Shown here: piece by piece, positions 45,837 through 64,000 of the stretch | Numbering within the stretch: the stretch's first letter is position 1 | Layout of the letters: each line of letters begins with the position of its first letter | Source of the DNA: a virus | Reading direction: 5' to 3' (one strand) | Virus record (IMG/VR): IMGVR_UViG_3300030085_001980 | Length of the DNA: 64,000 nt | Notes under the pieces: model-generated | The model's input: the letters and a program-made list of their open reading frames with translations, nothing else | Databases searched by the model: none | What the model was told of the DNA's origin: nothing | Program-made: the position numbers and the translations under genes

Positions 45837-45857
45837 TCTGCGTTTTCTGCCGTCTAA

Positions 45858-47954: not shown

Positions 47955-47957
47955 CTG

Positions 47958-48368: not shown

Positions 48369-48556
48369 TAAGTGTCAAAGCGTTCGACGTAATCATCGAA
48401 ACCACCTTCACCACCACATTGTCTAGATAAACGATCCGTAGGGGGATCGTTGGGTTTGTTTCGGTTCAAGTATTTATCAGCGCGGGGGTCGGTTATTAGA
48501 ACCATCCCACTTTTAATGAAATCTTGACTTTGATCAGGGATAGGACTGTTTGCCAT
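48368..48556 (-). CDS. Hypothetical protein
   Basis: ORF abutting gp25; late-like GATAAATA at 48610-48617. Confidence 0.65.
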   Translation of the reverse strand: MANSPIPDQSQDFIKSGMVLITDPRADKYLNRNKPNDPPTDRLSRQCGGEGGFDDYVERFDT

Positions 48557-48612
48557 TGTGCTCTGTAGATGAGGACAGAACTTTTATAGCGGTTACTATC
48601 GCTGTTTAGTAT

Positions 48613-48762
48613 TTATCGCTTACCCTGACCCCTGTAACGCTTGCGTGCCTTATTACGGGAACTTGAAGCGTACTTGGTGTGCTGACCGTTACCTTGACGA
48701 GTTTTCTTGGGAACCGATTCAATCAGCTTCTGACCAGAGAGACCAACTTTTGCGCGTGCCAT
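48613..48762 (-). CDS. 49-aa basic protein (not in ORF track)
   Basis: MARAKVGLSGQKLIESVPKKTRQGNGQHTKYASSSRNKARKRYRGQGKR. Confidence 0.75.
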   Translation of the reverse strand: MARAKVGLSGQKLIESVPKKTRQGNGQHTKYASSSRNKARKRYRGQGKR

Positions 48763-48797
48763 AGAATTGTGTGTAGGACTCGCAAATTATAGCACGA

Positions 48798-49331
48798 TTA
48801 TCCAGCGAGGACAGTAGGAGAACCATATGCAACCACTGACTTACAGGGCCAAGAAACGAATGGTTTACCAATGCCAAGAGGGTCTAGCATTCTACCAATA
48901 GGTCTCTTCAGAGCGTACACTGTAAACGTTGTTGCCTCACACATACGGAAGTGACCAACACCACCCATATCTTCCACTGTGAGCATACCGCAAGTAGTGG
49001 GTGTTGGGATAATACACATTGCCTTACCACAAGGGCACAGGTAATTAATGATGTTTGCCGTGGTTGATGTATGTGGTGTAAACGTGTCACCAAACAACAT
49101 AACGGGCAAACCGTTGACTAGCACAGTTGCTCTAAGAGGATTGACCGCTTCAAGTGGAATTAGCGGTTGAGGTGCCCACCAACAAGTAAGGTCCTTAACA
49201 ACGATGCCAAAGGGGATAGGAGGCGTGCCACAGGGTTGTTGATTGTGGATAGATGCGGGTACGGGTAGTCCGTGTCCAGAACAAGGAAGACCGTTAAGAG
49301 ACGCAACTGGTTTTAGAATTCCTAATGCCAT
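48798..49331 (-). CDS. PAAR-like spike tip protein (gp5.4-like)
   Basis: CSGHG, TVLVNGLPV...GD.FTPH, RPIGR..D, VAYGSPTVLAG. Confidence 0.8.
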   Translation of the reverse strand: MALGILKPVASLNGLPCSGHGLPVPASIHNQQPCGTPPIPFGIVVKDLTCWWAPQPLIPLEAVNPLRATVLVNGLPVMLFGDTFTPHTSTTANIINYLCPCGKAMCIIPTPTTCGMLTVEDMGGVGHFRMCEATTFTVYALKRPIGRMLDPLGIGKPFVSWPCKSVVAYGSPTVLAG

Positions 49332-52816: not shown

Positions 52817-53085
52817 TAATCACTAGAGAGTTTCTCTTCGATTTTATTTAGTCGCTCAAACAGATTATCAAACAGTTTTGTCAGGTTACTGTAGTCAGTA
52901 TCACCAGGGATTTTATACTGAATCATATCAGCACCGCGTGATAGCAGTTGTTCCATTCTACCAACGCGCTGTGCAAGATTCGTACAAGTCTTGGCAATCA
53001 TTTCAAATCGCCACTCGTTCTCTTCTTCTTTATTAGCAAAGTTGGGGATCTCTAGATCCTGTGGGATTTCAAAGTCTTCAGACAT
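52816..53085 (-). CDS. Hypothetical protein
   Basis: ORF abutting both neighbours. Confidence 0.7.
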   Translation of the reverse strand: MSEDFEIPQDLEIPNFANKEEENEWRFEMIAKTCTNLAQRVGRMEQLLSRGADMIQYKIPGDTDYSNLTKLFDNLFERLNKIEEKLSSD

Positions 53086-53630
53086 TAAAAATAATTGATG
53101 TTAAGGACAACACGGTACTTCTCGTTAGTAGTAGACGTACCGCTATGAGGGGTGTTCACAGGGAATTTTACCAGACGGTTGGCAACAGAGTCAACCCTTC
53201 CATTATGGAACTTGGTATATCCGTCATTACTATTAAGATAAAGGATAGCAGTCGTTGCTCCTTCAAACTCTTCACTACCATACTCACCACAATCAGTATG
53301 GAATGCATACTCTTGTAGACTATCCGTATGGTGATTCAGGTTTGCCTTAATACGGATGAGCGCACGCGGTTGTAACAGGTTGATAATAGGCAATACGTAC
53401 TCATACATCTGACTTAATGGTTGACCATTACCATACAGGTAGTTTACCATTTGCCAGTTGTAGATTTCTGCTGCTTGTAGTTCAGGATCAAACATCCGTG
53501 CTACGTGCATTACCTTCGCCTTATTCACAAACCAGGGAAAATCCTGACCCGTAAATGCTTCAGAGATACGTTCAAACTCCTCAGGAGGTAAGAAGTTATC
53601 AATGATTTCTAGATTTGCCAATGGATCCAT
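53085..53630 (-). CDS. 2OG-Fe(II) oxygenase (prolyl-4-hydroxylase-like)
   Basis: IIDNFLP, FHTD, TTAILYLNSNDG, NRLVKFP..TPHSG, RVVLNIN; start set at MDPLAN. Confidence 0.85.
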   Translation of the reverse strand: MDPLANLEIIDNFLPPEEFERISEAFTGQDFPWFVNKAKVMHVARMFDPELQAAEIYNWQMVNYLYGNGQPLSQMYEYVLPIINLLQPRALIRIKANLNHHTDSLQEYAFHTDCGEYGSEEFEGATTAILYLNSNDGYTKFHNGRVDSVANRLVKFPVNTPHSGTSTTNEKYRVVLNINYF

Positions 53631-53676
53631 AGTCTTTAGAATAGTTACGACGCTCGCGGGGGCGCGGTTTTTGAGG

Positions 53677-53868
53677 CTAGTCAATAAAGCTCGATGCATT
53701 CAGTTTGGTTTGGATACTTCGCCATAGGTTCTGTACCTTGGTGAGTTCCTTGCCGCCCTGAACATCTGCTTTGTATATGAGACACCACTGTGCTGAGTTG
53801 CACAGTAGTTTGCGTTCCGCATCAGTGAGTGTGATAGTCCACTCAGTCGGTTTCTCTGTAGGGTCCAT
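53677..53868 (-). CDS. Hypothetical protein
   Basis: Start moved to MDPTEK because the upstream part overlaps another ORF. Confidence 0.5.
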   Translation of the reverse strand: MDPTEKPTEWTITLTDAERKLLCNSAQWCLIYKADVQGGKELTKVQNLWRSIQTKLNASSFID

Positions 53869-54016
53869 AGAGGTTAACACGTTGTGCGATTTTCTGCAGG
53901 ATTGCATCGCACTCATCATAGCGATCTTTTTTGAATGGTCCAACCGTATTCGATTGGTAGTAACGAACTGCATTATATACAGTTTTGAGTTCATCAGTGG
54001 TGAGGAGTTTACTCAT
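53843..54016 (-). CDS. 57-aa hypothetical protein (not in ORF track)
   Basis: MSKLLTTDELKTVYNAVRYYQ...YDECDAILQKI... Confidence 0.65.
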   Translation of the reverse strand: MSKLLTTDELKTVYNAVRYYQSNTVGPFKKDRYDECDAILQKIAQRVNLYGPYRETD

Positions 54017-54170
54017 TAATTTTGCGAAGAATTACAGAATCATCTTGGACATCATACTCTAGGGTGTCGCCATAGTCCCATCCTGCTTCATCTAACAGAG
54101 CATCTGGTAAAGTAATGAACAGATCTCCGTGTTCATCCTCCTCCACTGGAAGAATGTATCTTTGTGACAT
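54009..54170 (-). CDS. AbrB/MazE-like small DNA-binding protein, 53 aa (not in ORF track)
   Basis: YILPVEEDEHGDLFITLPDALLDEAGWDYGDTLEYDVQDDSVILRK; matches the AbrB pattern ITLP..L....GW..GD.LE. Confidence 0.75.
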   Translation of the reverse strand: MSQRYILPVEEDEHGDLFITLPDALLDEAGWDYGDTLEYDVQDDSVILRKINE

Positions 54171-54613
54171 TAGACTTTACGAAGTACGTATCGTATATGT
54201 GGTATATAGGACTTTACGTACTCTAGACGTGAAACGTCGTTTGCTTTCTGATGTAATAGAATACCTTCCCCTAGATAGATCGCAGCGTGCTTCAGACGCC
54301 CCCTAGAGGACGTTATATGGGGTTCTGAGGAGTCGAATGACATCACTAGGACATCATACTTCTCCAACACAGACATATCGAATAATTCTTTTTCTTCTGA
54401 CTCTACGACAGACTCCCACCCTTCGCCAGTCCACAGATCTCTTACGAAGTCTCGAAGGCGAAGTGAGTAGTCTTCCTTACACGTGTGATAACCTGTACTC
54501 TTGCCAAACTCGAAGAGCAGGTTGAAACATCCACCACCTCTCTGACCACCCCAAGGGCGACCTAGAAACTCACCGTACTCCTCAGAGTATTTTTCCATCA
54601 ACTTGTCACTCAT
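54170..54613 (-). CDS. NlpC/P60-family peptidase (lambda K-like)
   Basis: GGCFNLL (Cys), KHAAIYLGEG.LLHQ (His, His). Confidence 0.8.
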   Translation of the reverse strand: MSDKLMEKYSEEYGEFLGRPWGGQRGGGCFNLLFEFGKSTGYHTCKEDYSLRLRDFVRDLWTGEGWESVVESEEKELFDMSVLEKYDVLVMSFDSSEPHITSSRGRLKHAAIYLGEGILLHQKANDVSRLEYVKSYIPHIRYVLRKV

Positions 54614-54732
54614 AATTTTTCTCCGAGAATTTTTTTGTATATGGGGGGACCCAAAGTGCGATTTCGATAATATATGCTCCCCTATACTGTTGTAGGTTAG
54701 CAGAGGGGACCCTTTTTAATATGTCGAAAGTG

Positions 54733-54921
54733 TCAACAATCGTCCCCCACATTCACAGAGTAGCAGAGCCCTTCGGTCACATAATAATCGATGAGTTGTT
54801 TATACTCAGTGTACCACGGTTCTTGTTCAGTGTCAACCAAATATTGCACCCACTCGATGATCTCTTGAGGGGGCAGATTACCCTCCTCATAGAGTTCAGC
54901 GAAGATCGAATACTTCTTCAC
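54733..54921 (-). CDS. Hypothetical protein
   Basis: Last ORF of a 3-gene operon. Confidence 0.7.
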   Translation of the reverse strand: MKKYSIFAELYEEGNLPPQEIIEWVQYLVDTEQEPWYTEYKQLIDYYVTEGLCYSVNVGDDC

Positions 54922-55067
54922 GATTGTGTAGTGTAATCGAGGTCAATATCCCCATAGGATTGATCATCAAACTCTAGGTCCTCAAATATATCTTCCGAGG
55001 TATCTTCGAGCATTTGATCAATCCAATCGTCTGCTGTAGTTAGTGACATCAACTCCTCTTCGTTCAT
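54918..55067 (-). CDS. 49-aa highly acidic protein (not in ORF track)
   Basis: MNEEELMSLTTADDWIDQMLEDTSEDIFEDLEFDDQSYGDIDLDYTTQS; stop overlaps the next ATG. Confidence 0.65.
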   Translation of the reverse strand: MNEEELMSLTTADDWIDQMLEDTSEDIFEDLEFDDQSYGDIDLDYTTQS

Positions 55068-55069
55068 TG

Positions 55070-55252
55070 TCAATAATCCTCCGAGTCTATTTGATAGTTT
55101 TTACCTTGACGGTTCTTGTTAGTTTGTGTGTCATCGAGAGTATCACTGTACGTGTCGCTCGATTTCTTTCTACTACCGTAAGCACGTTTCTCTCTCAAAC
55201 TCTTAGGACGGTTTGATCTATAAACGTCGTTCCGTTTGTATGTACGACCCAT
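55070..55252 (-). CDS. 60-aa protein with basic N-terminus
   Basis: Directly downstream of a sigma70 promoter. Confidence 0.7.
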   Translation of the reverse strand: MGRTYKRNDVYRSNRPKSLREKRAYGSRKKSSDTYSDTLDDTQTNKNRQGKNYQIDSEDY

Positions 55253-55291
55253 TGAAATGTGTTGGATAGGTGTTCTTCAGTGGACAACGGT

Positions 55292-55320
55292 AATATAGAA
55301 GATTTTTCAGAATTTGTCAA
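55292..55320 (-). promoter_or_regulatory. sigma70 promoter TTGACA-N17-TATATT
   Basis: Plus strand AATATA 55292-55297 and TGTCAA 55315-55320. Confidence 0.8.
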
Positions 55321-55352
55321 AGGTGTGTCAGAAACTGTTTCGTCCCTATGTG

Positions 55353-55381
55353 TTGACAAACCCTCGCTCGTGTGCTAACGT
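55353..55381 (+). promoter_or_regulatory. Divergent plus-strand sigma70-like promoter TTGACA-N17-TAACGT with extended -10 TG
   Basis: TTGACA 55353-55358, TG 55373-55374, TAACGT 55376-55381. Confidence 0.5.
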
Positions 55382-55500
55382 CCTAAGGTTGCAACATCTA
55401 GGAGGTTTCTAACACTTTATTCCACAGTTTAGATATACTTTTCCACAAGGATGTGGAGAGAGATAAAATACATAACTATGTTTTTTTAACCATTTATTTA

Positions 55501-55841
55501 TTACGGATTAAACCACCGTAAGTTACTATAATGGTCATTTAGTTTGTCTCCGTCGATGTGTCTAACCTGTTGGTAATACTGGTCATTAGTTGATATAAAG
55601 GCGTCTGCACATAGACGCGCAATTCTTCTTACTACTGTCTTACCATTTTGTCTTAGTGTTACTCTCCTATAACCATTTTCGTTTAGATGTGTGTTTAACT
55701 CTCTCCACTTGCCATACTTTGTGGAAAACACATTGCCGTGTTCGTTGATAAAATATTCTTCGTAATTAGGGATGGGTTTGTATAACGTACCGTCTTGATC
55801 TTTGTACGTTGTTTCATCTACTTTGGTGAATGAGTAAATCA
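55501..55841 (-). CDS. NUMOD4-HNH free-standing endonuclease
   Basis: KPIPNYEEYFINEHGNVFS, NGYRRVTL, VRHIDGDKLND...NLRW; start probably MIYSF. Confidence 0.8.
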
Positions 55842-55843
55842 TA

Positions 55844-56479
55844 TTAAAAAGGTGCAATGTTGAAGGATAATGCAATTCTATTGCCGTGACCATTGTTCTC
55901 ATATCCGTGTTGGATATTAGGGGGATGGATGATAACATCTCCTTCATTATGTGGGATCTCTGCTTCTAGTTGATTGAAGGCATTTTGTCCAGTATAGTTC
56001 ATCTGAAGCACAGGATAATGTGGCGAACCGATATAACGGCGAAACTTCATTATACTATGCTTTTGAATATCGAAGTTGATGTAATATGTGCCCGAGTATA
56101 TTACATTGCTGTGTTCGTGTGGTGCATACATTCCCCCTTCATTTGTCAATTCGATGTATGAATCAACAATGGAGATTTTATCGAGAGCATAATTGTAAGA
56201 TGACTTATTTGCCTTGTGTACAGCATCAATAATCATCTCTTTAATTGGTGCTAATTGTGGCATCTCTAGTACGTTATCTGGACCGAGTTGAGTAATACCA
56301 CGGGAGATATATGGGCGCGGTTCGTTCTTCACTTCCTGGAGTCCTTGAATATACTCCATCAGAATAGTTTTGTGCTCGATGTGATCTTTGTTGATATATC
56401 TTGCCACAGGAGTCATAAACAACCCGTACGCAGTTGCGTCAGAAATGTTTTCAAAACCGTCGCTAAGTGTCACTTCCAT
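55844..56479 (-). CDS. 2OG-Fe(II) oxygenase (TIGR02466-like)
   Basis: PHEHSNVIYSGTYY, GDVIIHP..IQH, RIALSFN. Confidence 0.85.
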   Translation of the reverse strand: MEVTLSDGFENISDATAYGLFMTPVARYINKDHIEHKTILMEYIQGLQEVKNEPRPYISRGITQLGPDNVLEMPQLAPIKEMIIDAVHKANKSSYNYALDKISIVDSYIELTNEGGMYAPHEHSNVIYSGTYYINFDIQKHSIMKFRRYIGSPHYPVLQMNYTGQNAFNQLEAEIPHNEGDVIIHPPNIQHGYENNGHGNRIALSFNIAPF

Positions 56480-56497
56480 AGTGTTAGATAAGACAAT

Positions 56498-56523
56498 AAA
56501 AAAGGAGGGGTTTTATACCCTCC
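56498..56523 (-). terminator. Terminator GGAGGG-N8-CCCTCC-TTTTTT
   Basis: 6-bp stem plus U tract at the end of the module array. Confidence 0.75.
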
Positions 56524-56552
56524 ATTATGTATCATTTTGCGTGATTTGTCAA
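56524..56552 (-). promoter_or_regulatory. sigma70-like promoter TTGACA-N17-CATAAT
   Basis: Upstream of the oxygenase; the start site would fall inside the terminator hairpin. Confidence 0.55.
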
Positions 56553-56645
56553 ATGTTTGTCAGAGGGTTGGTTATTAACAAACTTGAGACGGATAGGGCG
56601 AGAATTGATACGAATAGCGTTTGCAGTACGTTGTTCACGAGACAT
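56532..56645 (-). CDS. Possible 37-aa peptide
   Basis: MSREQRTANAIRINSRPIRLKFVNN...; abuts the upstream ORF. Confidence 0.35.
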   Translation of the reverse strand: MSREQRTANAIRINSRPIRLKFVNNQPSDKHLTNHAK

Positions 56646-56646
56646 T

Positions 56647-56778
56647 TCAAAGTTGATCGAGTTGGCGTTGAATAGTGGCGTTGCGCTCATTGATAACATC
56701 GGACAAAGTTGAGTCCATTAGTTGAATACCAAGGTTTGCACCGAGGATAACAAAGAGAGCAACAAAGAAGATACGCAT
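56647..56778 (-). CDS. 43-aa protein with N-terminal TM segment
   Basis: MRIFFVALFVILGANLGIQLMDSTLSDVINERNATIQRQLDQL. Confidence 0.65.
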   Translation of the reverse strand: MRIFFVALFVILGANLGIQLMDSTLSDVINERNATIQRQLDQL

Positions 56779-56810
56779 TTGTGTTAGTGAAGAAGGTGAA
56801 CTTAGGGTTA

Positions 56811-57158
56811 TCAGGCGAAGATGTAACCGTTGTCAAATTCTTCAGTCACAAACTTAGATTGTCCGTTGATTGCGCCTGCAAACTTACGAACAAACCACTT
56901 ATAGTTCTTCTGAAAAACACCTTCGCCATCAATACAAAACTCCTCGCAAAGTGCATTAAGACGAGATTTTGTAGTGACAGTTTGCCAACCACCATCGAAG
57001 ATTGTCATATCGTTGTCAGAAACCTCAGCAATTTTGTTGCCGTGGAGACGTACAATAGAGACGCCAGATTCTTCGTTAAAGTGAACCGAAGTGTTGCCAG
57101 ACTGCCAGTTGATGTTCTTCTGAACAGCGGCACACATTTGAGATTCGATCTTACGCAT
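56811..57158 (-). CDS. Hypothetical early protein
   Basis: MRKIESQM...LHGNKIA...DGGWQTVTTKSRLNAL; first gene after module site 1. Confidence 0.8.
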   Translation of the reverse strand: MRKIESQMCAAVQKNINWQSGNTSVHFNEESGVSIVRLHGNKIAEVSDNDMTIFDGGWQTVTTKSRLNALCEEFCIDGEGVFQKNYKWFVRKFAGAINGQSKFVTEEFDNGYIFA

Positions 57159-57220
57159 TTTGTGGTTGAAAGTGAAGTGAATTGGTGTCGGTTGGTTGGT
57201 TTCCCTCCCTCCCGATGTCT

Positions 57221-57280
57221 TTATTATAGGGCGTCAGGAGCGCCTGTAAGGGGGTTCGGTGACAGTTTATGGACTGGCAC
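57221..57280 (-). promoter_or_regulatory. Module promoter 1: GTGCCAGT-N6-ACTGTCAC plus -10 TATAAT
   Basis: Inverted repeat 57259-57280; TATAAT about 30 nt downstream. Confidence 0.75.
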
Positions 57281-57292
57281 ACCCTAGAGGCG

Positions 57293-57505
57293 TTAATTGA
57301 TACTTTTGAGCATATAATGGTAGTCAATATCTAACACAGGAAAACCGATCGCAGTTGTTATCTCCTCCACCAAATCTTCGCTGTCTGCTGCTTCCCAAAC
57401 CGTGCACAATACTTCGTCGATAATATCTTGCTGCATTTGTGGTGATGCTTCAAAGTCATCATCTTTGAAGTCGATGTTAATTGCTTCAACGCGGAAAGTG
57501 TTCAT
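57293..57505 (-). CDS. Acidic hypothetical protein
   Basis: Start set at MNTFRVE. Confidence 0.7.
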   Translation of the reverse strand: MNTFRVEAINIDFKDDDFEASPQMQQDIIDEVLCTVWEAADSEDLVEEITTAIGFPVLDIDYHYMLKSIN

Positions 57506-57539
57506 AATAGTGCGGAGAATTGGTGTACGTTGCGCGGTA

Positions 57540-57767
57540 TCAACCGCCAAACATTTCATCGAAGAGGTTTTCAGACTCTTGCAATTCTGCGTGGCGATCA
57601 AGTTCATCACGAGCAGAAACCAACGCCGCTTGCTTCATCTTAATTTTGTTAAGTTCCTCGTTGATGTAATGCAAACGAGTGTTAATTTGACAGCGGTCCA
57701 TACCATTCACGGTGGGCATATCGTAAGAAGTGCCGTTGATGATTCGTGGTTGCATAATAACAGTCAT
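57540..57767 (-). CDS. Hypothetical protein
   Basis: Start set at MTVIMQPR. Confidence 0.65.
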   Translation of the reverse strand: MTVIMQPRIINGTSYDMPTVNGMDRCQINTRLHYINEELNKIKMKQAALVSARDELDRHAELQESENLFDEMFGG

Positions 57768-57796
57768 TGTGAAAAATTGAGTGAAGTTTGTGTTAA

Positions 57797-58033
57797 TCAG
57801 GCGTCGAGATCTTGAGCAGCGTCCCACATATCGTAGAACAGATCCCACGCGGGACCATCAGCAACAAAGGAGGAACATTCTGCCTGATCGCATACCCAAT
57901 CGTACGCCATATCGATGTCGGCGTTGTTATCGAGAATGAATTCGTGCAGTCCTTGGATTGCACTAATGAAGGCAGGATCTTGAACGAGAGAGATATATTT
58001 TTTGCCTTGGTCGTTGGTCACTGTGATGGTCAT
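57797..58033 (-). CDS. Acidic hypothetical protein
   Basis: Start MTITVTND, with RBS AAAGGAA upstream. Confidence 0.7.
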   Translation of the reverse strand: MTITVTNDQGKKYISLVQDPAFISAIQGLHEFILDNNADIDMAYDWVCDQAECSSFVADGPAWDLFYDMWDAAQDLDA

Positions 58034-58054
58034 TTGGTTTCCTTTGTTCATACC

Positions 58055-58115
58055 AGTATGATGGCACAGAATCAGGGCGTTTGGGGAGAATGGTGGACAC
58101 TCTCCCGACTGTCAC
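58055..58115 (-). promoter_or_regulatory. Module promoter 2: GTGACAGT-N6-AGTGTCCA plus -10 CATACT
   Basis: Inverted repeat 58094-58115. Confidence 0.7.
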
Positions 58116-58471
58116 TGCCAACCAGTCATTTCACTAGGTTCTGAGCGAGAATCTTCGATGTAGTTTGCATCATCTAGATATGCATTAATTTCATCGTCAG
58201 TGAGCGTACCCTCAGCAAATTGTCTGAACTCGTCATCATCTGCACCGTGATAGTTGTGCACTTCGTCACACAATTCATAGTCAGATAATTGTGCCATTCC
58301 ATCAGTCAAGAGATCATAAACGAGTTGCTCCATTGTCTTATAGTCCATCCCTTCGATCATCCTTTCGGCATAAGTTTCGATGAGATCTTGACGACGATCG
58401 GAGTTGATTTCGAGCACGGGAGACATAGGATTAGGAGAGGAGAAAGGTACAAAAACAGGGTGCATATTCAT
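58112..58471 (-). CDS. Acidic hypothetical protein
   Basis: ORF; start may be MSPVLE. Confidence 0.65.
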   Translation of the reverse strand: MNMHPVFVPFSSPNPMSPVLEINSDRRQDLIETYAERMIEGMDYKTMEQLVYDLLTDGMAQLSDYELCDEVHNYHGADDDEFRQFAEGTLTDDEINAYLDDANYIEDSRSEPSEMTGWQ

Positions 58472-58663
58472 TCGCCTACACCATAATCAGCATACAACCA
58501 TTCAAATTTGGGTGCACTTTCAGGATCAACACCATCTACAACAAACTCACTGAAGATTGCTGCTGCTGTTTCAAAATTATCGTTCTCAACGTGTTGTGCA
58601 ATCATCTTGAGATATTGCTCCGTGAGGATGTCAATACCGATGTCAACATTGTCGTTTTTCATA
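58468..58663 (-). CDS. Acidic hypothetical protein
   Basis: Start set at MKNDNV. Confidence 0.65.
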
Positions 58664-58756
58664 ATCAATGGGGAACGAATGTACGTTGGAAAAATGTTAG
58701 TAGTGGGGAGATCTCGCGGCAGGAGATACAATTACATAGACCCACTATGTGATAGT

Positions 58757-59023
58757 TTAGCAGTACAGGGGCATATACTCAGAGGAAGGCATTTTGTCAG
58801 TATTGAAACCAGTAACCTTAGCACCGTTTGCGATACGTTGGTTCCAATCATATTTTGCTTCGATGCCAAGAACTGTGCTGTAGGATTTCATACCATTAGC
58901 ACGGAAAGTGACACGCTTAACGAAACGTTTGACCGTGACTTTCATACCTTTGGTGTCATCTGCCTCGGCAATAAATGCCTCAGGGAAATAATCAACAATG
59001 GTGGCGGAGTTGGTGACTTGCAT
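58757..59023 (-). CDS. Hypothetical early protein
   Basis: MQVTNSATIVDYFPEAFIAEA..., with RBS AAGGAA upstream. Confidence 0.75.
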   Translation of the reverse strand: MQVTNSATIVDYFPEAFIAEADDTKGMKVTVKRFVKRVTFRANGMKSYSTVLGIEAKYDWNQRIANGAKVTGFNTDKMPSSEYMPLYC

Positions 59024-59030
59024 TGGTTGC

Positions 59031-59105
59031 GTTCCTTTGACTCTTTTAATATACACGGGATTGGTGCCCGTGGGGAGAATAGTGGACAGTTTGTGCAACT
59101 GGCAC
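59031..59105 (-). promoter_or_regulatory. Module promoter 3: GTGCCAGT-N7-ACTGTCCA plus -10 TATATT
   Basis: Inverted repeat 59083-59105; 27-bp block identical to that in module 4. Confidence 0.75.
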
Positions 59106-59108
59106 ACG

Positions 59109-59318
59109 TCAGACGATCTCAGTCCATTTTTTATGGTTTGCTTTGGTGATTCTCCCATCTGCTAACAAGTTGTCACACACATTGCAGAAGACGTTAAACT
59201 TTTCTGTGCGGTCCAATGTATCAACGCCGTTGCAGGTCTTGATAACATCGAGGATCATTTTCTTGGAGTGAACCATTTTGCTGTAGATGGGGAAAGTTGC
59301 AGTGGTCATTGTCATCAA
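59109..59318 (-). CDS. Small protein, paralogue of 59632..59796
   Basis: D..........D.L..DG.IT.......W pattern. Confidence 0.7.
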   Translation of the reverse strand: MMTMTTATFPIYSKMVHSKKMILDVIKTCNGVDTLDRTEKFNVFCNVCDNLLADGRITKANHKKWTEIV

Positions 59319-59650
59319 ACGTACTGAAGTTTACCGACGAGAGTCTTAACCTCAAAATTATTGTAGGCACCCATTGTGATCGTACGATCGTTAGGGAGGA
59401 TGCTCAGATCTTCACGAACTTGCCAGAAGTTGTCTCCTTGAATGACAACAGCGAACCCGAAACATCCAGGCACTGGCATCATAAACAAACCGTGCTTTTC
59501 TGCCTGCTTCGCTGATGCAAATCCACGAGCATTGATGGACCATTCTTTACCTTCAGAATCCTTACCGAAGTAGACACAAATGAAGTCAGTCATTGTTGTT
59601 AATGAAGAGTGAAAAGTGTTGGTGTACGTTATCAGAAAGGGCAGGTCCAA
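59315..59650 (-). CDS. Hypothetical protein (start probably MTDFICV)
   Basis: ORF overlapping the downstream gene. Confidence 0.65.
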   Translation of the reverse strand: MDLPFLITYTNTFHSSLTTMTDFICVYFGKDSEGKEWSINARGFASAKQAEKHGLFMMPVPGCFGFAVVIQGDNFWQVREDLSILPNDRTITMGAYNNFEVKTLVGKLQYV

Positions 59651-59796
59651 GTTTCATATTGCTTCATCGTAATATAACCATCTCGGCACAACATATCGGT
59701 GTAAAGTCCCCAAGCATAACGCATTGCGGGTTTGTCGTTGAGACCTTCGGGGACAGATACTGCCAGAAAGTTTGCTTTTGCTTCGCGTTTGGTCAT
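59632..59796 (-). CDS. 54-aa protein (not in ORF track)
   Basis: MTKREAKANFLAVSVPEGLNDKPAMRYAWGLYTDMLCRDGYITMKQYETWTCPF; RBS AAGGAA. Confidence 0.75.
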   Translation of the reverse strand: MTKREAKANFLAVSVPEGLNDKPAMRYAWGLYTDMLCRDGYITMKQYETWTCPF

Positions 59797-59805
59797 TTGA
59801 GTGGT

Positions 59806-59879
59806 GTTCCTTTGACTCTTTTAATATACACGATTTTGGGGTGCTGTGGGGCAATGGTGTGCACCTTGCCGACCGTCAC
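59806..59879 (-). promoter_or_regulatory. Module promoter 4: degenerate GTGACGGT-N6-GGTGCACA plus -10 TATATT
   Basis: Inverted repeat 59858-59879; 27-bp block identical to that in module 3. Confidence 0.65.
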
Positions 59880-60436
59880 AGCACGCGGGTGCCGAATTGT
59901 TGAATCATTTTGTTTGGGATAGTATAACCCAGACGGGGATCTTTTCTCACCTTGGTTGACTCATACTGTTTTTTGAGGTTAGGTAGAAGAATTGCAATCA
60001 CGTCAAGTGCATCCATTCGCCAGATTTCTTGGATCTTGCCTGACTCATAGCGTGCATAGTAGTGATTAGCATACTTGCCAATCTTTTCCTCTTGAATATA
60101 CTCTACTTGTTTCTCCCAAGTATCCTGAACACTGATACCATTGTACGTTGCTGTTAGTTTCTTGCCAATCGTTGATTTATACTCACAGGGACCATCTTGA
60201 TCGTATGCATCAGCACCACTATAATCGTCGGCAATAGTGTGACCTAAGATGCCTGCCATATGTATTTCACGAGAGCGAGCATAAGAGAAAGGATCACCCC
60301 ACTCATTTGCCTCGCAAAGTGCATACATTTGCTCGAACAGTTGTTGATACTGTTGCTCAGGAGTCATTGTAGTAAGATCAGCAGTTTTATCGCAGAAAGT
60401 GTCAAATGCCTCTCTGATGTTTGTAAGTTCTTGCAT
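59876..60436 (-). CDS. PvuII-like PD-(D/E)xK endonuclease
   Basis: GADAYDQDGPCEYKS resembles the PvuII active site GNDAVDNAGQEYELKS; flanking segments also resemble PvuII (compared from memory). Confidence 0.65.
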   Translation of the reverse strand: MQELTNIREAFDTFCDKTADLTTMTPEQQYQQLFEQMYALCEANEWGDPFSYARSREIHMAGILGHTIADDYSGADAYDQDGPCEYKSTIGKKLTATYNGISVQDTWEKQVEYIQEEKIGKYANHYYARYESGKIQEIWRMDALDVIAILLPNLKKQYESTKVRKDPRLGYTIPNKMIQQFGTRVL

Positions 60437-60459
60437 TTGGGTGAATTGCTTTGACTCTT

Positions 60460-60520
60460 ATAGTATTGCATTAAAAAGCGCCCTCTGGGGGCGCTGGTGG
60501 ACACTTTAACGTACTGTCAC
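60460..60520 (-). promoter_or_regulatory. Module promoter 5: GTGACAGT-N7-AGTGTCCA, embedded terminator, -10 TACTAT
   Basis: Inverted repeat 60498-60520. Confidence 0.75.
60473..60495 (-). terminator. Terminator AGCGCCC-N5-GGGCGCT-TTTT
   Basis: GC-rich stem plus U tract. Confidence 0.75.
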
Positions 60521-60526
60521 ACGGTA

Positions 60527-60931
60527 TCACCAATGGGTGCCAAGGTGAGACATTGTTGATGTAAATGCTGTAAATGTTGCGGCGTCAGTGATATTTGTGG
60601 TGGAAACTCTTGCCGCTGCTTCATCCTTACCGATGTCACCATCAGATGTAACGAATCCCCAAACTTTGACGACTCCACCTCTATCAGCAGGAGCAGTTCC
60701 TACGATCTCGATGTCATCACCAGCAGCACGAGTTGCGAACGCCCAAGTAACTGAAGCGTCATCCGCTTCGATCTTACTTTTCTTCGCTTCCAGTCTAGTA
60801 TCAACACCGAAATTTGCGGTGCCGCTAGATGTCATTCTAGCGTCGATGTTTGCGAGTCTATACTGCTTTGCTTTTGCAACAAGGGCAGTACACAGTTCAC
60901 CCGCTTTGGTTGTTACTGCTTCGCTTGCCAT
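60527..60931 (-). CDS. Late-expressed hypothetical protein (134 aa)
   Basis: ORF with its own TATAAATA promoter; VWGFVTSDGDI motif. Confidence 0.75.
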   Translation of the reverse strand: MASEAVTTKAGELCTALVAKAKQYRLANIDARMTSSGTANFGVDTRLEAKKSKIEADDASVTWAFATRAAGDDIEIVGTAPADRGGVVKVWGFVTSDGDIGKDEAAARVSTTNITDAATFTAFTSTMSHLGTHW

Positions 60932-60959
60932 AACTTTCTAAAAGATTACTTTGCTGATC

Positions 60960-60967
60960 TATTTATA
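60960..60967 (-). promoter_or_regulatory. T4 late promoter TATAAATA
   Basis: Perfect consensus right after the helicase stop. Confidence 0.8.
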
Positions 60968-60968
60968 C

Positions 60969-62213
60969 TCAACGGACATACGAGTCAGGAGCAACACCTT
61001 TGACGAAGATACTATCAACAACACGCTGAAGACGCTCAACAGTATTCTTACCATAGTTTTTGTAGACAGGGACTGTCACAAATCCAGTGGATTTCTTGTA
61101 CATTTGGAGAGCACCAGCAGTGATCTTGCCTGCTTTGATGTTAGCAACGTCGTCGCGATCCATACGAATAACACGACCGATAGTTTGTGCCATCTCAACT
61201 ACATTCAGATTGCGAAGCAATACACAATGAGTGAGACCAGGCACGTTGATACCTTCAGACAGAATACTGTAGTGGAAGATGACAAATTTCTTGGTAGGAT
61301 CAGCACCCCAAGCAGTCAACGTACGGAAGAATTCTTCGCGTCCGACTTTCTTTTTGTTGACAAATGCACCGAACTTAGATGTAACGTGCAGCACATTGTA
61401 ACCACGCTCTGCAAGACGAGCGAGCAAATCTGTCTTGCCAATCATATTGCCAAGCACACGAGAAGATGGCACAGCAACCAGAATCTTTGCAGCGTGTTGT
61501 TCATCGAGATCAGCAATAATACCGTCTACAGTATCAGCATCGTTCTCGTGAGCATTGATCTTGAGTCGCTCAATATCTTGCTCGAAAGGAACAACAGTAG
61601 GAGACACGATGCAACCGTTGTTGATAAGTTCTGGTGCAGGTACGTTCTCAATAACTTGACCGTAAATCTCTGCGTTGTTCATACCCCTGCTATGAGAATT
61701 AGCAGTGCGAGGAGTAGCAGTGAAAAAATAGGTGGAATCAGAGTGAAGACTGCAAGCAGCAGTAGGAATGAAAAAATGGCGTGTGACACTGTTATGTGCT
61801 TCGTCAAAATAAGCACAATCAATATCAATCCCAGAATCGACAACACGGCGCAAAGAATGGTAAGTTGTGAAGATAATTACGGACTCACCTGCTGCACGAG
61901 CAGTGTTAGCGAACAAGGCAATCTTTTCAGACTTAGTGCTGCTGAAATACTTTGTTTCACCACTGTGGCAGTGACAGATGTGGGTCCAAGTGTTAGAAAC
62001 CTGCTGCATAAACTCATCACAGAGTTGATTAGCGAGCAGAATACGAGGAGCGACAACAACAATAGTTTTAGGACCAGTCTTCATCCTGCGGATGCAATCC
62101 TGAATCATAATGAATGTTTTACCGCCGCCAGTAGGTACAATGATTTGACCCTTATCGTGCTTGCTCATAGCAGCGAGAGCACGAACTTGATGGGGGCGAA
62201 GTGTAATGGTCAC
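60969..62213 (-). CDS. SF2 DEAH-box helicase (ResIII-like)
   Basis: PTGGGKT, FDEAH, TATPR, ILSEGINVP, QTIGRVIR. Confidence 0.92.
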   Translation of the reverse strand: MTITLRPHQVRALAAMSKHDKGQIIVPTGGGKTFIMIQDCIRRMKTGPKTIVVVAPRILLANQLCDEFMQQVSNTWTHICHCHSGETKYFSSTKSEKIALFANTARAAGESVIIFTTYHSLRRVVDSGIDIDCAYFDEAHNSVTRHFFIPTAACSLHSDSTYFFTATPRTANSHSRGMNNAEIYGQVIENVPAPELINNGCIVSPTVVPFEQDIERLKINAHENDADTVDGIIADLDEQHAAKILVAVPSSRVLGNMIGKTDLLARLAERGYNVLHVTSKFGAFVNKKKVGREEFFRTLTAWGADPTKKFVIFHYSILSEGINVPGLTHCVLLRNLNVVEMAQTIGRVIRMDRDDVANIKAGKITAGALQMYKKSTGFVTVPVYKNYGKNTVERLQRVVDSIFVKGVAPDSYVR

Positions 62214-62238
62214 AGTGGCGATTGATGTCGATGAATTA

Positions 62239-62295
62239 AATATACAGCAAAAAGACCCCGTGTGGGGTCAGAGTAGACAGTTATTCAACTGGCAG
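62239..62295 (-). promoter_or_regulatory. Module promoter 6: CTGCCAGT-N6-ACTGTCTA, embedded terminator, -10 TATATT
   Basis: Inverted repeat 62274-62295. Confidence 0.7.
62249..62269 (-). terminator. Terminator GACCCC-ACAC-GGGGTC-TTTTT
   Basis: Perfect 6-bp stem plus U tract. Confidence 0.8.
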
Positions 62296-62437
62296 CAGCG
62301 TTCTTCAGCACTGTGATTAAGTGCATTTTACCGTGGAAATATCCAGCAGCAATAACACCTAACGTACACAGTAAGAGTACACCAAGACCAATAAGTTGTG
62401 GGATTGGTGGTGTTAAATCAGACTGATTGTGGTCCAT
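62285..62437 (-). CDS. 50-aa single-TM protein (not in ORF track)
   Basis: MDHNQSDLTPPIPQLIGLGVLLLCTLGVIAAGYFHGKMHLITVLKNAAAS. Confidence 0.7.
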   Translation of the reverse strand: MDHNQSDLTPPIPQLIGLGVLLLCTLGVIAAGYFHGKMHLITVLKNAAAS

Positions 62438-62688
62438 CAGGTAGTGATACTCGTGCCAAAATCTCCTGATTCGATTGCATCCACGACTGACACTGGTGAG
62501 GATTCATACAAGGGAGATTCGTATGTTTTTGATTCGTACAAGGGGAGTCCTTCTTTTTTCCTGTGCAGTCGGTGCAACTCCCAGTACACGATTGCGAGGT
62601 GTTGTTGCAAATAGTTTTTTGTTTCAAGTTCATTAACTCTGCATCTGATTGATTCAAGATCTGCCATCAGTTGTTCTAGTTCAGTCAT
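62437..62688 (-). CDS. Hypothetical protein with 3x 5-aa YES repeat
   Basis: ORF abutting both neighbours. Confidence 0.65.
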   Translation of the reverse strand: MTELEQLMADLESIRCRVNELETKNYLQQHLAIVYWELHRLHRKKEGLPLYESKTYESPLYESSPVSVVDAIESGDFGTSITT

Positions 62689-63253
62689 AATGACATTCCA
62701 AAAGTGTTCCTCGATTCACTATACCTTGTGGCATAGCGTTAAATGATAGCGTACTGCGATGTGTGCCTGGGAGTGTATAGTGTTCCACATAAGATGGGAA
62801 CAAAATTAGATCACCCTTCACACCTTGTGCAGCATATGTCATCTGTTGATTACTGATGACACATATACCTGACTGAGCATTGATTGCAGGCGAATCAAAG
62901 TACGTTGGTGAGCAATGTGTCAGATATAATATACCTGACACGAAACTATTCGGATGTTTGTGTGGGTGGTGTTCCTCGTGTGGTTCACTTACATTAATCC
63001 ACGACAATGTGGGTTTGAAGCGATCACACTGAAACTGATACAAATCTCTATAATCATCCAGTGCCACCTGAATTTCGTTGAATAGTCTAACGAATCGTGG
63101 TAGATCGTGGAGATGAGTGTTTGCTGTTTGCTTGAGATTTCCGACATTGTACTTAGTATCAATGGCGTAATCTACGACTGATTCTACAACTTCAGGATTG
63201 ATAGTGTAACGTACAATATCTGTTGAAAGTGCAGAAGTTACTACCCTGTCCAT
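62681..63253 (-). CDS. 2OG-Fe(II) oxygenase (TIGR02466-like)
   Basis: HHPHKHPNSFVSGILYL, GDLILFPSYVEH, RSTLSFN. Confidence 0.88.
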   Translation of the reverse strand: MDRVVTSALSTDIVRYTINPEVVESVVDYAIDTKYNVGNLKQTANTHLHDLPRFVRLFNEIQVALDDYRDLYQFQCDRFKPTLSWINVSEPHEEHHPHKHPNSFVSGILYLTHCSPTYFDSPAINAQSGICVISNQQMTYAAQGVKGDLILFPSYVEHYTLPGTHRSTLSFNAMPQGIVNRGTLLECHYD

Positions 63254-63393
63254 CAGAATTTAGCGTTGACACCAATAATTTGTGCATTAGGATTTCGTGC
63301 CATTGCTACCTGTCTCGCCTCTTGATAATCGCGGGCGTGTACTTCTTCTTTAATTACTTTGCCAGCGATGAACATACTTACCTCGCATTTCAT
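63253..63393 (-). CDS. 46-aa protein (not in ORF track)
   Basis: MKCEVSMFIAGKVIKEEVHARDYQEARQVAMARNPNAQIIGVNAKF; overlaps both neighbours. Confidence 0.75.
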   Translation of the reverse strand: MKCEVSMFIAGKVIKEEVHARDYQEARQVAMARNPNAQIIGVNAKF

Positions 63394-63590
63394 AGGAGAT
63401 CTTCATCCATTTTTAAGTGCTCGGAAATAATACGCTCAATGTCAGCATTTGTCAACCCGTTGAGCATTGCCCAACGTGGATCAGTCTCGTCCCAATCAAT
63501 CACGATTGATCCATCTTCGTTGACAGTGATATTCAGACCATCATCAGGATCCGAATCCAGATCCACTGGTTTTACTTCGTTTTGCATCAA
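63390..63590 (-). CDS. Acidic hypothetical protein
   Basis: ORF; IVIDWDETDPRW. Confidence 0.7.
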   Translation of the reverse strand: MMQNEVKPVDLDSDPDDGLNITVNEDGSIVIDWDETDPRWAMLNGLTNADIERIISEHLKMDEDLL

Positions 63591-63780
63591 TAACCTCTAT
63601 TGTTTCGATGTATTGTTTGAAGTTCCACCACGCAGTTTGTACGTCAGCGTAATCTTCAAGGATCTTAACTGATCCATCAGTGCACCACACTTTGTACCAA
63701 TTCCTGTCGTAAGGTTTGTCAGAAGTGAGTGTAAAGTAACGGTCGTCGGTGGGATCAATGTTCTGATTCACGGAGATCAC
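63544..63780 (-). CDS. Hypothetical protein
   Basis: ORF; SDKPYDRNWYKVW. Confidence 0.7.
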   Translation of the reverse strand: MISVNQNIDPTDDRYFTLTSDKPYDRNWYKVWCTDGSVKILEDYADVQTAWWNFKQYIETIEVIDAKRSKTSGSGFGS

Positions 63781-63940
63781 TGAGTTGTTGTTCTAGGGTG
63801 TCAATCCTAGCACATAAACTAGAGAGAAGTATGGACAACTCCTCCCTATTTACTTTGCCAGAGATGTAATAACCATCGTCGCGTACCAATAATTTAAGGA
63901 TGTCACTTTTGTTCACTATTTCAACTCCATAATATCCCAA
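63755..63940 (-). CDS. Hypothetical protein
   Basis: ORF; start uncertain. Confidence 0.55.
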   Translation of the reverse strand: MGYYGVEIVNKSDILKLLVRDDGYYISGKVNREELSILLSSLCARIDTLEQQLSDLRESEH

Positions 63941-64000
63941 TTAGGGTCGTCAGGTGTATCGATCCAGAACCAATACTCTCTGTTTGCCTCACTAGAGACA

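What the first reader, a model, noticed from the sequence alone, without database searches (positions are those of the whole stretch)
59876..60436. Orphan PvuII-like restriction endonuclease in its own early module
Seen: ...GDPFSYARSREIHMAGILGHTIADDYSGADAYDQDGPCEYKS... and KYANHYYARYESGKIQEIWRM...TIPNKMIQQFGTRVL. From memory these parallel R.PvuII (NDIF...GNDAVDNAGQEYELKS; FAIYRGIAIEAIYRL; KIPVKYVMEHGTKIY), with the D and ExK catalytic residues present. No methyltransferase is in the window. CAGCTG occurs in the phage DNA (e.g. 5108-5113, 16447-16452), so specificity must differ or the DNA must be protected. Inference: a phage-borne type II-like nuclease for host chromosome degradation or for excluding competing phages, possibly modification-dependent.
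Basis: partly seen in the sequence, partly recalled or inferred. Interest (0 to 1): 0.75.

Follow-up and report, generated by a model that had tools for sequence, protein, structure and literature searches.

The report
Methylase-less PvuII-family nuclease, CATG-free cyanophage
This marine cyanophage gene encodes a genuine relative of the restriction enzyme PvuII that has lost its partner methylase, and the phage DNA contains no CATG at all, so the enzyme most likely cuts CATG in host or rival DNA while the phage itself offers no target.

Summary
The ORF at 59876-60436 (minus strand, 186 aa) is real. It is a PvuII-family PD-(D/E)xK endonuclease: a family profile hits R.PvuII over its full length (E about 1e-7), the fold match is Z 12.8 with 153 of 157 residues aligned, and D76/E85/K87 align with the PvuII catalytic triad. 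The PvuII recognition segments are replaced, and CAGCTG is not avoided.

In related phages the gene is translationally coupled to a small N6-adenine methylase, "c1" (NPPF motif, M.TaqI-like fold). The window lacks c1.

An unbiased k-mer comparison singles out CATG:
- 0/1047 in nuclease-plus, c1-minus DNA (window 0/243; one complete 182-kb genome 0/665)
- 1481/1571 in 11 nuclease-less cyanomyophages
- 113/259 in P-SSM2 and P-TIM68, which carry c1

The window's closest nuclease-less relatives have normal CATG. The nuclease is under purifying selection (dN/dS 0.07-0.2).

Best reading: an early-expressed, homodimeric, CATG-specific nuclease, with the phage protected by having no sites rather than by methylation. 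Cleavage has not been tested, and independent evolutionary contrasts are few.

This scan reached the same reading earlier on other genomes. I tested it independently here, with controls. I found no published description.

The parts
59876..60436 (-). Nuclease gene R, 186 aa from the ATG at 60436. An alternative start, M24 at 60367, would give 163 aa, as in most homologs.
   Evidence: ORF list and translation. PHROG 35715 at E 2.5e-77. Family profile against PvuII at E about 1e-7. AF2 model pLDDT 88.9. Foldseek top 11 hits are all PvuII. VIA-align Z 12.8.
60176..60211 (-). Catalytic segment: D76 ... E85-Y-K87, a PD-(D/E)xK motif.
   Evidence: Invariant in 34 close homologs and at least 90% conserved in 47 diverse ones. 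Aligned to PvuII GNDA...YELKS. The motif is kept in 84 of 85 phage copies.
60125..60148 (-). TYNGISVQ segment (residues 97-104), a candidate DNA-recognition element that replaces PvuII's shorter His-triplet segment.
   Evidence: Invariant in the cyanophage subfamily. Falls where PvuII's ...STHHHMN aligns with gaps. A second subtype, RYD-VSW, exists in distant relatives. The recognition role is inferred.
59933..59944 (-). KDPR segment (residues 165-168), a second candidate recognition element at the position of PvuII's ...DINNPK.
   Evidence: K165, D166 and R168 are invariant. Alignment to PvuII. It covaries with the first segment between subtypes. The role is inferred.
60233..60364 (-). N-terminal helices (residues 25-68) predicted to form the symmetric dimer interface.
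   Evidence: Interface residues from complex prediction. Helices H26-43 and H54-64 in the model.
60477..60495 (-). Intrinsic terminator hairpin plus T-run that ends the upstream gene and isolates the R cassette.
   Evidence: Terminator scan: 7-bp stem, 6 G-C pairs, followed by TTTTTAATGCA.
60449..60459 (-). Leader/promoter-module word AAGAGTCAAAG just upstream of the R start codon. Exact copies lie at 59810-59820 and 59035-59045.
   Evidence: Three exact minus-strand copies within 1.5 kb, two of them (60449, 59810) directly upstream of a gene start. The neighbouring copy's region, 59798-59830, is a high-depth junction point in metagenomes.
1..64000 (.). The whole window is free of CATG (0 observed, 195-243 expected). 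This is the inferred self-protection state.

Best explanation
The gene encodes an active, homodimeric Type IIP-like restriction endonuclease of the PvuII structural family. Its target is most likely the 4-bp palindrome CATG. Ancestrally it forms a two-gene operon with a small N6-adenine methylase (c1) that overlaps its stop codon. In the window's lineage c1 is absent and every CATG has been purged from the genome. The enzyme is expressed from its own early cassette and can cut host DNA, or the DNA of co-infecting CATG-containing phages, without harming the phage. Shown here: family membership, intact catalytic residues, purifying selection, absence of c1 and of CATG, and the three-way association between nuclease, methylase and CATG content. 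Inferred: cleavage activity, CATG as the cleaved word, timing of expression, and the biological target (host DNA for nucleotide recycling or host shut-off, or rival phages).
For: Family and fold:
- Profile of 47 members against PvuII chains: E 7e-8 to 1e-7 over the full length, 3e-16 on single-chain PvuII.
- Foldseek top 11 hits are all PvuII, TM up to 0.74.
- VIA-align Z 12.8, rmsd 3.7, 153 of 157 residues aligned; next is NhoI at 10.4, then generic PD-(D/E)xK folds at about 7.
- D76/E85/K87 are invariant.

Dimer: score 0.65 against a best control of 0.01. That mark was reached by 20 of 30 proteins solved as pairs of one chain and 1 of 23 solved as single chains. The runs agree in at least 91% of contacts and partner pLDDT is at least 87.

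Partner methylase:
- c1 overlaps the R stop codon in 40 of 85 loci.
- PHROG 799 'DNA methyltransferase' at E 1.5e-36; invariant SNPPF; fold closest to M.TaqI and M.BseCI.
- Among 21 whole or partial genomes, c1 occurs only in P-SSM2 and P-TIM68. It is never found without R.

Target:
- Unbiased 4- to 6-mer scan: CATG is 0/1047 in R+c1- DNA, 1481/1571 in R- DNA and 113/259 in R+c1+ DNA. All top 5- and 6-mers are CATG with any flank.
- The complete 181,945-bp genome G001 has 0 CATG against 665 expected.
- c1 is present in 35 of 49 CATG-containing loci and 5 of 36 CATG-free loci.
- The window's closest R- relatives (67-71% helicase identity) have CATG at 1.3-1.9 times expectation, and no R on their contigs.

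Functionality: dN/dS is 0.065-0.20 where measurable, and none of 85 copies has a stop codon.

Cassette: own terminator and leader motif, and the gene changes position among relatives.
Against: - No biochemical data exist. The specificity is inferred from genome composition alone.
- Independent evolutionary contrasts are few: 2-4 changes on the R and helicase trees, so the sign test cannot reach significance.
- Other words (CCGG, GGCC, AGCT) are purged in cyanomyophages with or without the gene. Purging without a phage-borne nuclease therefore clearly happens.
- Five loci have c1 and are still CATG-free (L034, L035, L070, L073, L075).
- Eleven fragmentary contigs have R and CATG with no c1 on the contig. 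They are explainable by a P-SSM2-like distant c1, but that is not shown.
- Only 64 kb of this phage is visible, so a methylase elsewhere in its genome cannot be excluded directly.
- The dimer prediction may reflect the model's memory of solved PvuII dimers.
Confidence: 0.66

Rival explanations
1. The CATG purge is imposed from outside, by CATG-specific restriction systems of this lineage's hosts (or another compositional pressure). The solitary nuclease is only a passenger, with the same or another specificity, and plays no part in keeping CATG out.
For: CCGG, GGCC and AGCT are purged in all cyanomyophages sampled, with or without R. TCGA is absent from P-TIM68 and S-SSM4. So word purging without this nuclease is common. 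There are few independent contrasts. Five c1-carrying loci are CATG-free anyway.
Against: CATG is the only word whose loss tracks R. All 11 R- isolates, and 13 R- close relatives inside the same helicase clade, have normal or high CATG. c1, which is found only together with R, tracks CATG retention. R is kept under purifying selection after c1 is lost.
Confidence: 0.13
2. The protein is a modification-dependent nuclease, like the PvuII-fold BisI-family enzymes NhoI and Eco15I, that attacks methylated or otherwise modified DNA of hosts or rival phages.
For: NhoI and the Eco15I N-domain are the next-best structural matches (Z 10.4 and 8.8; Foldseek E 1e-4). The BisI family is modification-dependent (PMC11347163).
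Against: PvuII matches better by both fold and sequence. Eco15I reaches only E 0.24 by profile. In relatives R is co-transcribed with, and overlaps, an adenine methylase gene, which would be self-destructive for a methyl-directed enzyme of matching specificity. This reading also does not explain the complete loss of CATG.
Confidence: 0.05
3. The gene is mainly a selfish mobile cassette, a free-standing homing-type nuclease like the Seg and Mob genes of T4. Cutting R-less phage genomes during co-infection promotes its own spread rather than serving the phage.
For: Patchy distribution, its own terminator and promoter-like module, and variable position in a shuffling early island. A PD-(D/E)xK homing enzyme, I-Ssp6803I, is a weak structural match at Z 7.3.
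Against: A 4-bp target is far too frequent for homing. Overlap with a methylase gene is typical of restriction-modification systems, not of homing genes. The genome-wide purge implies general cleavage pressure. This rival overlaps with the 'excludes rival phages' part of the main explanation.
Confidence: 0.08
4. The solitary copy is catalytically silent, kept only as a DNA-binding protein or as a decaying relic.
For: Solitary restriction genes in prokaryotes are often fragments or inactive (PMC3488263). No activity data exist.
Against: Full-length ORF, invariant catalytic residues, dN/dS 0.07-0.2, and none of 85 copies with a stop codon. Continued total exclusion of CATG across a deep clade whose synonymous sites are saturated implies a pressure that is still acting.
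Confidence: 0.05

Closest known systems
R.PvuII (Proteus vulgaris, Type IIP, CAG^CTG; Pfam PF09225; PDB 1pvi, 1ni0, 3ksk)
   Same: Same fold from end to end (Z 12.8, 153 of 157 residues). The D...E-x-K catalytic residues align. Similar size (about 160 aa). Predicted symmetric dimer through the N-terminal helices.
   Different: About 18-20% identity. Below Pfam's gathering score. The His-triplet and Asn-Asn recognition segments are replaced. CAGCTG is not avoided, and the inferred target is CATG. The partner, where present, is a small N6-adenine methylase, not the N4-cytosine M.PvuII. It is viral, and in this lineage has no methylase.
CviAII restriction-modification system of chlorovirus PBCV-1 (M.CviAII A251R with A252R; CATG, m6A; PMC7248222)
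   Same: A virus-encoded R-M pair, with the methylase transcribed early, acting on CATG with adenine methylation.
   Different: It belongs to a virus of eukaryotic algae. No sequence or fold relation to this protein was tested or shown here. PBCV-1 keeps its methylase and its CATG sites, whereas this cyanophage lineage has neither.
Solitary Type II restriction endonuclease genes of prokaryotes (Ershova et al. 2012, PMC3488263)
   Same: A restriction gene with no linked methylase gene.
   Different: Those cases were mostly explained by distant methylases, gene fragments or inactivity. Here the gene is intact and under selection, complete relatives' genomes lack the cognate methylase, and the explanation is total removal of the target word from a viral genome.
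BisI-family enzymes NhoI and Eco15I (PDB 8q5n, 8q5m; PMC11347163)
   Same: A PvuII-like fold; second-best structural matches.
   Different: They require methylated cytosines in GCNGC. There is no significant sequence match, and the operon with a methylase argues against methyl-dependence here.
T4 host-DNA nucleases EndoII and EndoIV (denA, denB); established knowledge, not tested here
   Same: A possible functional analogue: early phage nucleases that destroy host DNA while phage DNA is exempt.
   Different: T4 is exempt through base modification (hydroxymethylcytosine). This phage would be exempt through lack of the target word. The protein families are unrelated.

Membership tests
PvuII endonuclease family (Pfam PF09225) | Significant sequence match to the family or to PvuII itself | tested here: met
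   The window protein alone gets no Pfam hit. Homologs score 16-21 bits against a cut-off of 25, and 6 of 47 diverse members hit PF09225, best E 2.8e-6. A profile of 47 members hits PvuII chains over their full length at E 7e-8 to 1e-7. Homology is supported, but this is an outlying subfamily below Pfam's own threshold.
PvuII endonuclease family (Pfam PF09225) | PvuII fold over the whole chain | tested here: met
   AF2 pLDDT 88.9. Foldseek top 11 hits are PvuII at E about 1e-6. VIA-align Z 12.8, rmsd 3.7, 153 of 157 aligned.
PvuII endonuclease family (Pfam PF09225) | Catalytic Asp ... Glu-x-Lys (PvuII D58, E68, K70) | tested here: met
   D76, E85 and K87 are invariant and aligned with GNDA...YELKS.
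PvuII endonuclease family (Pfam PF09225) | Homodimer through the N-terminal helices | tested here: inconclusive
   The prediction supports a symmetric dimer via residues 25-68: score 0.65 against a best control of 0.01; the mark was reached by 20 of 30 solved homo-pairs and 1 of 23 single chains; at least 91% contact agreement; pLDDT at least 87. It may reflect memory of PvuII dimers, and it is not a measurement.
PvuII isoschizomer (CAGCTG specificity) | PvuII recognition residues, with CAGCTG as the target | tested here: not met
   The His-triplet segment is replaced by the longer TYNGISVQ, and the Asn-Asn segment by KDPR. CAGCTG occurs 10 times against 9.8 expected in a genome with no methylase seen.
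PvuII R-M system (R.PvuII, M.PvuII, C.PvuII) | Cognate N4-cytosine methylase (PF01555) linked to R | tested here: not met
   The PF01555 methylase of cyanomyophages occurs in many R-less phages, is absent from the complete R+ genomes G001-G003, and co-occurs with CATG-free genomes. The gene coupled to R is instead the NPPF-type methylase c1.
Classical Type IIP restriction-modification pair | Endonuclease and methylase of matching specificity encoded together | tested here: not met
   Met in relatives: c1 overlaps the R stop codon in 40 of 85 loci. Not met in this window or in complete genomes of related methylase-less phages, where neither c1 nor a remnant of it is found. The window holds the R half only.
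Classical Type IIP restriction-modification pair | Sequence-specific double-strand cleavage blocked by the cognate methylation | not testable with these tools
   Needs enzyme assays. CATG is inferred from composition.
BisI family of modification-dependent endonucleases | Sequence membership and dependence on methylated target | tested here: inconclusive
   Fold likeness at Z 10.4 and 8.8, but profile E only 0.24 against Eco15I. Methyl-dependence cannot be tested here. The operon with a methylase argues against it.
c1 as an N6-adenine DNA methyltransferase (gamma-like, NPPY/F type) | Motif IV (N/D)PP(Y/F), a SAM-binding Rossmann fold, and likeness to known DNA adenine methylases | tested here: met
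   Invariant SNPPF and VWCPFD. PHROG 799 at E 1.5e-36. Weak Pfam hits to Eco57I, EcoRI_methylase and MTS. AF2 pLDDT 78, with top folds M.TaqI, M.BseCI and PacII M. Its target motif was not tested.

The most novel reading that the evidence does not exclude
A lineage of marine T4-like cyanophages has turned a restriction-modification pair into a pure weapon. It discarded the methylase after purging every copy of the enzyme's 4-bp target, CATG, from genomes of about 180 kb. Immunity to its own nuclease is therefore written into genome composition rather than into an epigenetic mark. P-TIM68 (63% of expected CATG), P-SSM2 (26%), the CATG-free loci that still carry c1, and finally the c1-less genomes would be successive stages of that transition.
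Probability: 0.55. Interest if true: 0.8.

Novelty: new variant of a known kind. Interest (0 to 1): 0.72.

Why it matters
If the enzyme does cut CATG, this is a virus that protects itself from its own restriction enzyme by having no target sites rather than by methylation. That constraint reaches into every gene: no CATG at start codons or across codon junctions in about 180 kb.

It would give cyanomyophages, which lack T4's modified bases, a simple way to tell host or rival DNA from their own. It would also link a conspicuous compositional signature in marine viromes to a single small gene.

The predictions are sharp and cheap to test: CATG cleavage, m6A at CATG in P-SSM2 and P-TIM68, and toxicity relieved by c1. 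The work also annotates a family of more than 1,100 metagenomic proteins and PHROG 35715, which currently have no assigned function.

Tried and rejected
Searches that returned nothing or could not be run:
- The single-sequence search and the close-homolog profile (A1) against PDB sequences found nothing. Only the more diverse profile A2 reached PvuII.
- No whole genome is held for the window.
With the close alignment it found only two tiny MAG contigs.
- The c1 profile has no relative among PDB sequences.
- Literature searches for cyanophage plus PvuII or CATG found nothing relevant.

Ideas considered and rejected:
- The P-TIM68-type PF01555 methylase as the cognate partner. It is widespread in R-less phages, sits beside the core helicase as island cargo, is present in the CATG-free G005 and G007, and is absent from complete R+ genomes.
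- AGCT, CCGG or GGCC as the target. They are depleted equally in R-less phages.
- A dedicated helicase-nuclease system. The ResIII/DEAD helicase matched in 10 of the 11 R-less isolates and 20 of 21 records, and in every R-less contig recovered with it, while R is a movable cassette.

Tests that were inconclusive:
- Sign tests on the trees: too few independent pairs.
- Eleven R+ CATG-containing contigs without c1 are 2-18% fragments, with R near the upstream contig end, so they are uninformative.
- Read laying: an RNA-library run holds an identical 1,778-nt contig across R, but contigs cannot show transcription.
- The 12 CATG sites in G002 all lie in the terminal 2.4 kb of the contig, probably a chimeric end.

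Full report
**Observation.** Most of more than 1,100 metagenomic homologs begin at the equivalent of M24, the ATG at 60367. In this phage, the ATG at 60436 sits behind the same leader word that precedes the next gene, so either start is possible. The window is part of a T4-like cyanomyophage (Kyanoviridae) with no close cultured relative in the phage collection. Among isolates, only P-SSM2, P-SSM5 and P-TIM68 carry a homolog, annotated as hypothetical. The family is PHROG 35715, function unknown.

**Family.**
- The protein alone has no Pfam or PDB sequence match, and a profile of close homologs also fails.
- Several homologs give sub-threshold hits to PF09225 Endonuc-PvuII.
- A profile of 47 diverse members drawn from a 1.8-billion-protein search hits R.PvuII over residues 14-157 at E about 1e-7, and single-chain PvuII at 3e-16.
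- That alignment places D76, E85 and K87 on the PvuII catalytic Asp...Glu-x-Lys.
- The AlphaFold model (pLDDT 88.9) has PvuII as its top 11 Foldseek hits. An aligner independent of Foldseek gives Z 12.8 with 153 of 157 residues aligned, ahead of the PvuII-like BisI-family enzymes NhoI (10.4) and Eco15I (8.8) and of generic PD-(D/E)xK folds at about 7.
- A symmetric dimer through the N-terminal helices is predicted. The score is 0.65 against a best control of 0.01. That mark was reached by 20 of 30 proteins solved as pairs of one chain and 1 of 23 solved as single chains. The runs agree in at least 91% of contacts and pLDDT is at least 87. PvuII dimers are solved, so this may show likeness only.
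- PvuII's His-triplet and Asn-Asn recognition segments are replaced by the invariant TYNGISVQ and KDPR. More distant relatives carry a different pair of segments, as expected when specificities diverge.
- CAGCTG is not avoided, 10 observed against 9.8 expected.
- The subfamily is essentially viral: two hits on tiny MAG contigs among about 185,000 prokaryotic species genomes.

**The partner.** I clustered the neighbours of the nuclease (R) in 85 loci. A 182-200-aa ORF, c1, starts at or just before the R stop codon in 40 of them.
- c1 matches PHROG 799 'DNA methyltransferase' at E 1.5e-36.
- It has an invariant SNPPF motif IV and weak Pfam hits to adenine-methylase catalytic regions.
- Its predicted fold is closest to the N6-adenine DNA methylases M.TaqI, M.BseCI and PacII.

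R plus c1 is therefore a compact restriction-modification operon. The other methylase seen next to R in P-TIM68 (PF01555) is not the partner. It is common in phages without R, lies beside the core helicase as cargo of the same variable island, is missing from complete R+ genomes, and is present in some CATG-free genomes. The window has no c1, no remnant of it, and no other methylase that I could detect.

**The target.** The window has no CATG (195-243 expected) and no CCGG. GGCC and AGCT are strongly depleted, and eleven 6-bp palindromes are absent. Controls separate these signals:
- CCGG, GGCC and AGCT are depleted in all cyanomyophages sampled.
- CATG is at expectation in all 11 isolates without R (118-170 observed against about 140 expected per 40 kb).
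- CATG is zero in the window and in eight IMG/VR genomes with R and without c1.
- CATG is 34/133 in P-SSM2 and 79/126 in P-TIM68.

An unbiased scan of all 4-, 5- and 6-mers ranks CATG first by about 5 log2 units: 0/1047 against 1481/1571, with 113/259 in the R+c1+ pair. Every top 5- and 6-mer is CATG with an arbitrary flank. The complete 181,945-bp genome G001 has 0 CATG against 665 expected. G002 has 12, all within the last 2.4 kb of the contig, probably a chimeric end.

Whole-record searches find c1 only in P-SSM2 (6.6 kb upstream of R) and P-TIM68 (adjacent to R). It is absent from all CATG-free R+ genomes and from all R-less phages. At locus level, c1 accompanies 35 of 49 CATG-containing loci and 5 of 36 CATG-free loci. 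The 11 metagenomic contigs among the 14 CATG-containing loci without c1 are 2-18% fragments in which R lies close to the upstream contig end. Several of these group with P-SSM2 on the R tree, so a distant c1 is plausible but not shown. Of the other three, L001 is P-SSM2 itself, and L083 and L084 are the two small MAG contigs.

**Is this a single accident of ancestry?** A first helicase tree put all CATG-free R+ genomes in one clade. I then fetched 80 more helicase relatives.
- The window's nearest relatives after the G006 type are R-less contigs at 67-71% helicase identity, with CATG at 1.3-1.9 times expectation and no R anywhere on contigs up to 112 kb.
- On the enlarged tree, three R+/CATG-free groups are interleaved with 13 R-less, CATG-normal rows inside one clade with 94% support.
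- On the R tree, a c1-carrying, CATG-containing subclade (L018-L028) nests within the c1-less, CATG-free clade.

All contrasts go the predicted way. But only 2-4 are independent, too few for a formal test, and I report that as a limit.

**Is the solitary gene alive?** None of 85 copies has a stop codon and 84 keep the catalytic motif. Within the c1-less clade, synonymous sites are mostly saturated while dN/dS is 0.065-0.20 where it can be measured. A deep clade that stays entirely free of a 4-bp word needs a pressure that is still acting.

**Cassette and context.**
- R is preceded by a strong terminator hairpin (60495-60477) and by the word AAGAGTCAAAG (60449-60459). That word recurs in front of the next gene and once more within 1.5 kb.
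- Gene order downstream of the ResIII/DEAD helicase is reshuffled between relatives, and R changes place or is absent. This fits modular early cassettes and argues against a dedicated helicase-nuclease system.
- The stretch occurs in marine metagenomes of several studies. One metatranscriptome library holds an identical 1,778-nt contig across R, which cannot prove transcription.

**Interpretation.** The most economical reading is a CATG-specific, PvuII-fold Type IIP endonuclease whose cognate adenine methylase has been lost, with the phage safe because it has no sites. The series P-TIM68 (63% of expected CATG), P-SSM2 (26%), CATG-free loci that still carry c1, and c1-less genomes suggests that sites were purged first and the methylase became dispensable afterwards. 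That ordering is an inference. Whether the enzyme serves host-DNA breakdown, host shut-off or exclusion of rival phages is open. The main rival is that external (host) restriction drives the purge. Even under that rival, the coupling of R to c1 and the link between c1 and CATG retention point to CATG as the pair's specificity.

**Prior work.** The closest functional precedent is the chlorovirus CviAII system (CATG, m6A; PMC7248222), which keeps its methylase. Solitary restriction genes are known in prokaryotes (PMC3488263), but were not explained by a purged viral genome. I found no paper describing this in cyanophages. Earlier agents of this scan reached the same reading on three other genomes. 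I treated that as a lead and tested it here with R-less controls, whole-genome methylase searches, an unbiased k-mer scan, trees and selection analysis.

Noticed in passing
window 1-64000; also L096-L132: CCGG is absent (0 observed, 148 expected), GGCC nearly so (4), AGCT is depleted about 4-fold, and eleven 6-bp palindromes (GATATC, TTCGAA, AGTACT, CAATTG, GTATAC and others) are absent from the window. CCGG, GGCC and AGCT depletion is shared by cyanomyophages without the nuclease, so it has a different cause, presumably host restriction systems.
   Followed up: partly
L098-L099 (P-TIM68), L118-L119 (S-SSM4), L102-L103 (S-WAM2): Other lineage-specific word purges: TCGA is 0/126 in P-TIM68 and 0/142 in S-SSM4, ACGT is 13/126 in P-TIM68, and GTAC is 10/147 in S-WAM2. 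These may mark other phage- or host-encoded nucleases of the same logic.
   Followed up: no
window 59798-59830: This roughly 33-bp stretch, containing the AAGAGTCAAAG module, has about 1,660x summed contig depth in a marine metagenome. Many unrelated contigs join it with loose ends on both sides, as expected of a regulatory cassette boundary shared by many phage genomes. A second spike lies at 61172-61275, inside the helicase gene.
   Followed up: no
window 60527-60931 (-): A 134-aa Ala/Thr-rich ORF with no Pfam match lies between the helicase and R. Its family (cluster 15) was seen only in CATG-free loci (16 of 16), and it sits next to the helicase in G006-type phages. Its function is unknown, and whether it relates to R was not tested.
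   Followed up: partly
window 26391-45836 (-): A single 6,481-aa ORF, flanked by further very large ORFs of 2,396 and 1,934 aa, presumably giant structural or fibre proteins.
   Followed up: no
G002 (IMG/VR contig of L026) 185063-187347: All 12 CATG sites of this otherwise CATG-free 187-kb contig cluster in its last 2.4 kb. This is likely an assembly chimera or a very recent import from a CATG-containing phage.
   Followed up: partly
A2 alignment (P0202, P0226, P0237, P0243, P0254, P0256, P0266, P0267): A distant subgroup of the family carries RYD-VSW and KN..LYATL in place of TYNGISVQ and KDPRLG, while keeping the catalytic residues. It probably has a different specificity.
   Followed up: no
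c1 methylase, e.g. L031:5501-6064: c1 is only about 185 aa, a bare catalytic domain with no separate target-recognition domain (M.TaqI is about 420 aa). How it would read CATG is unexplained.
   Followed up: partly
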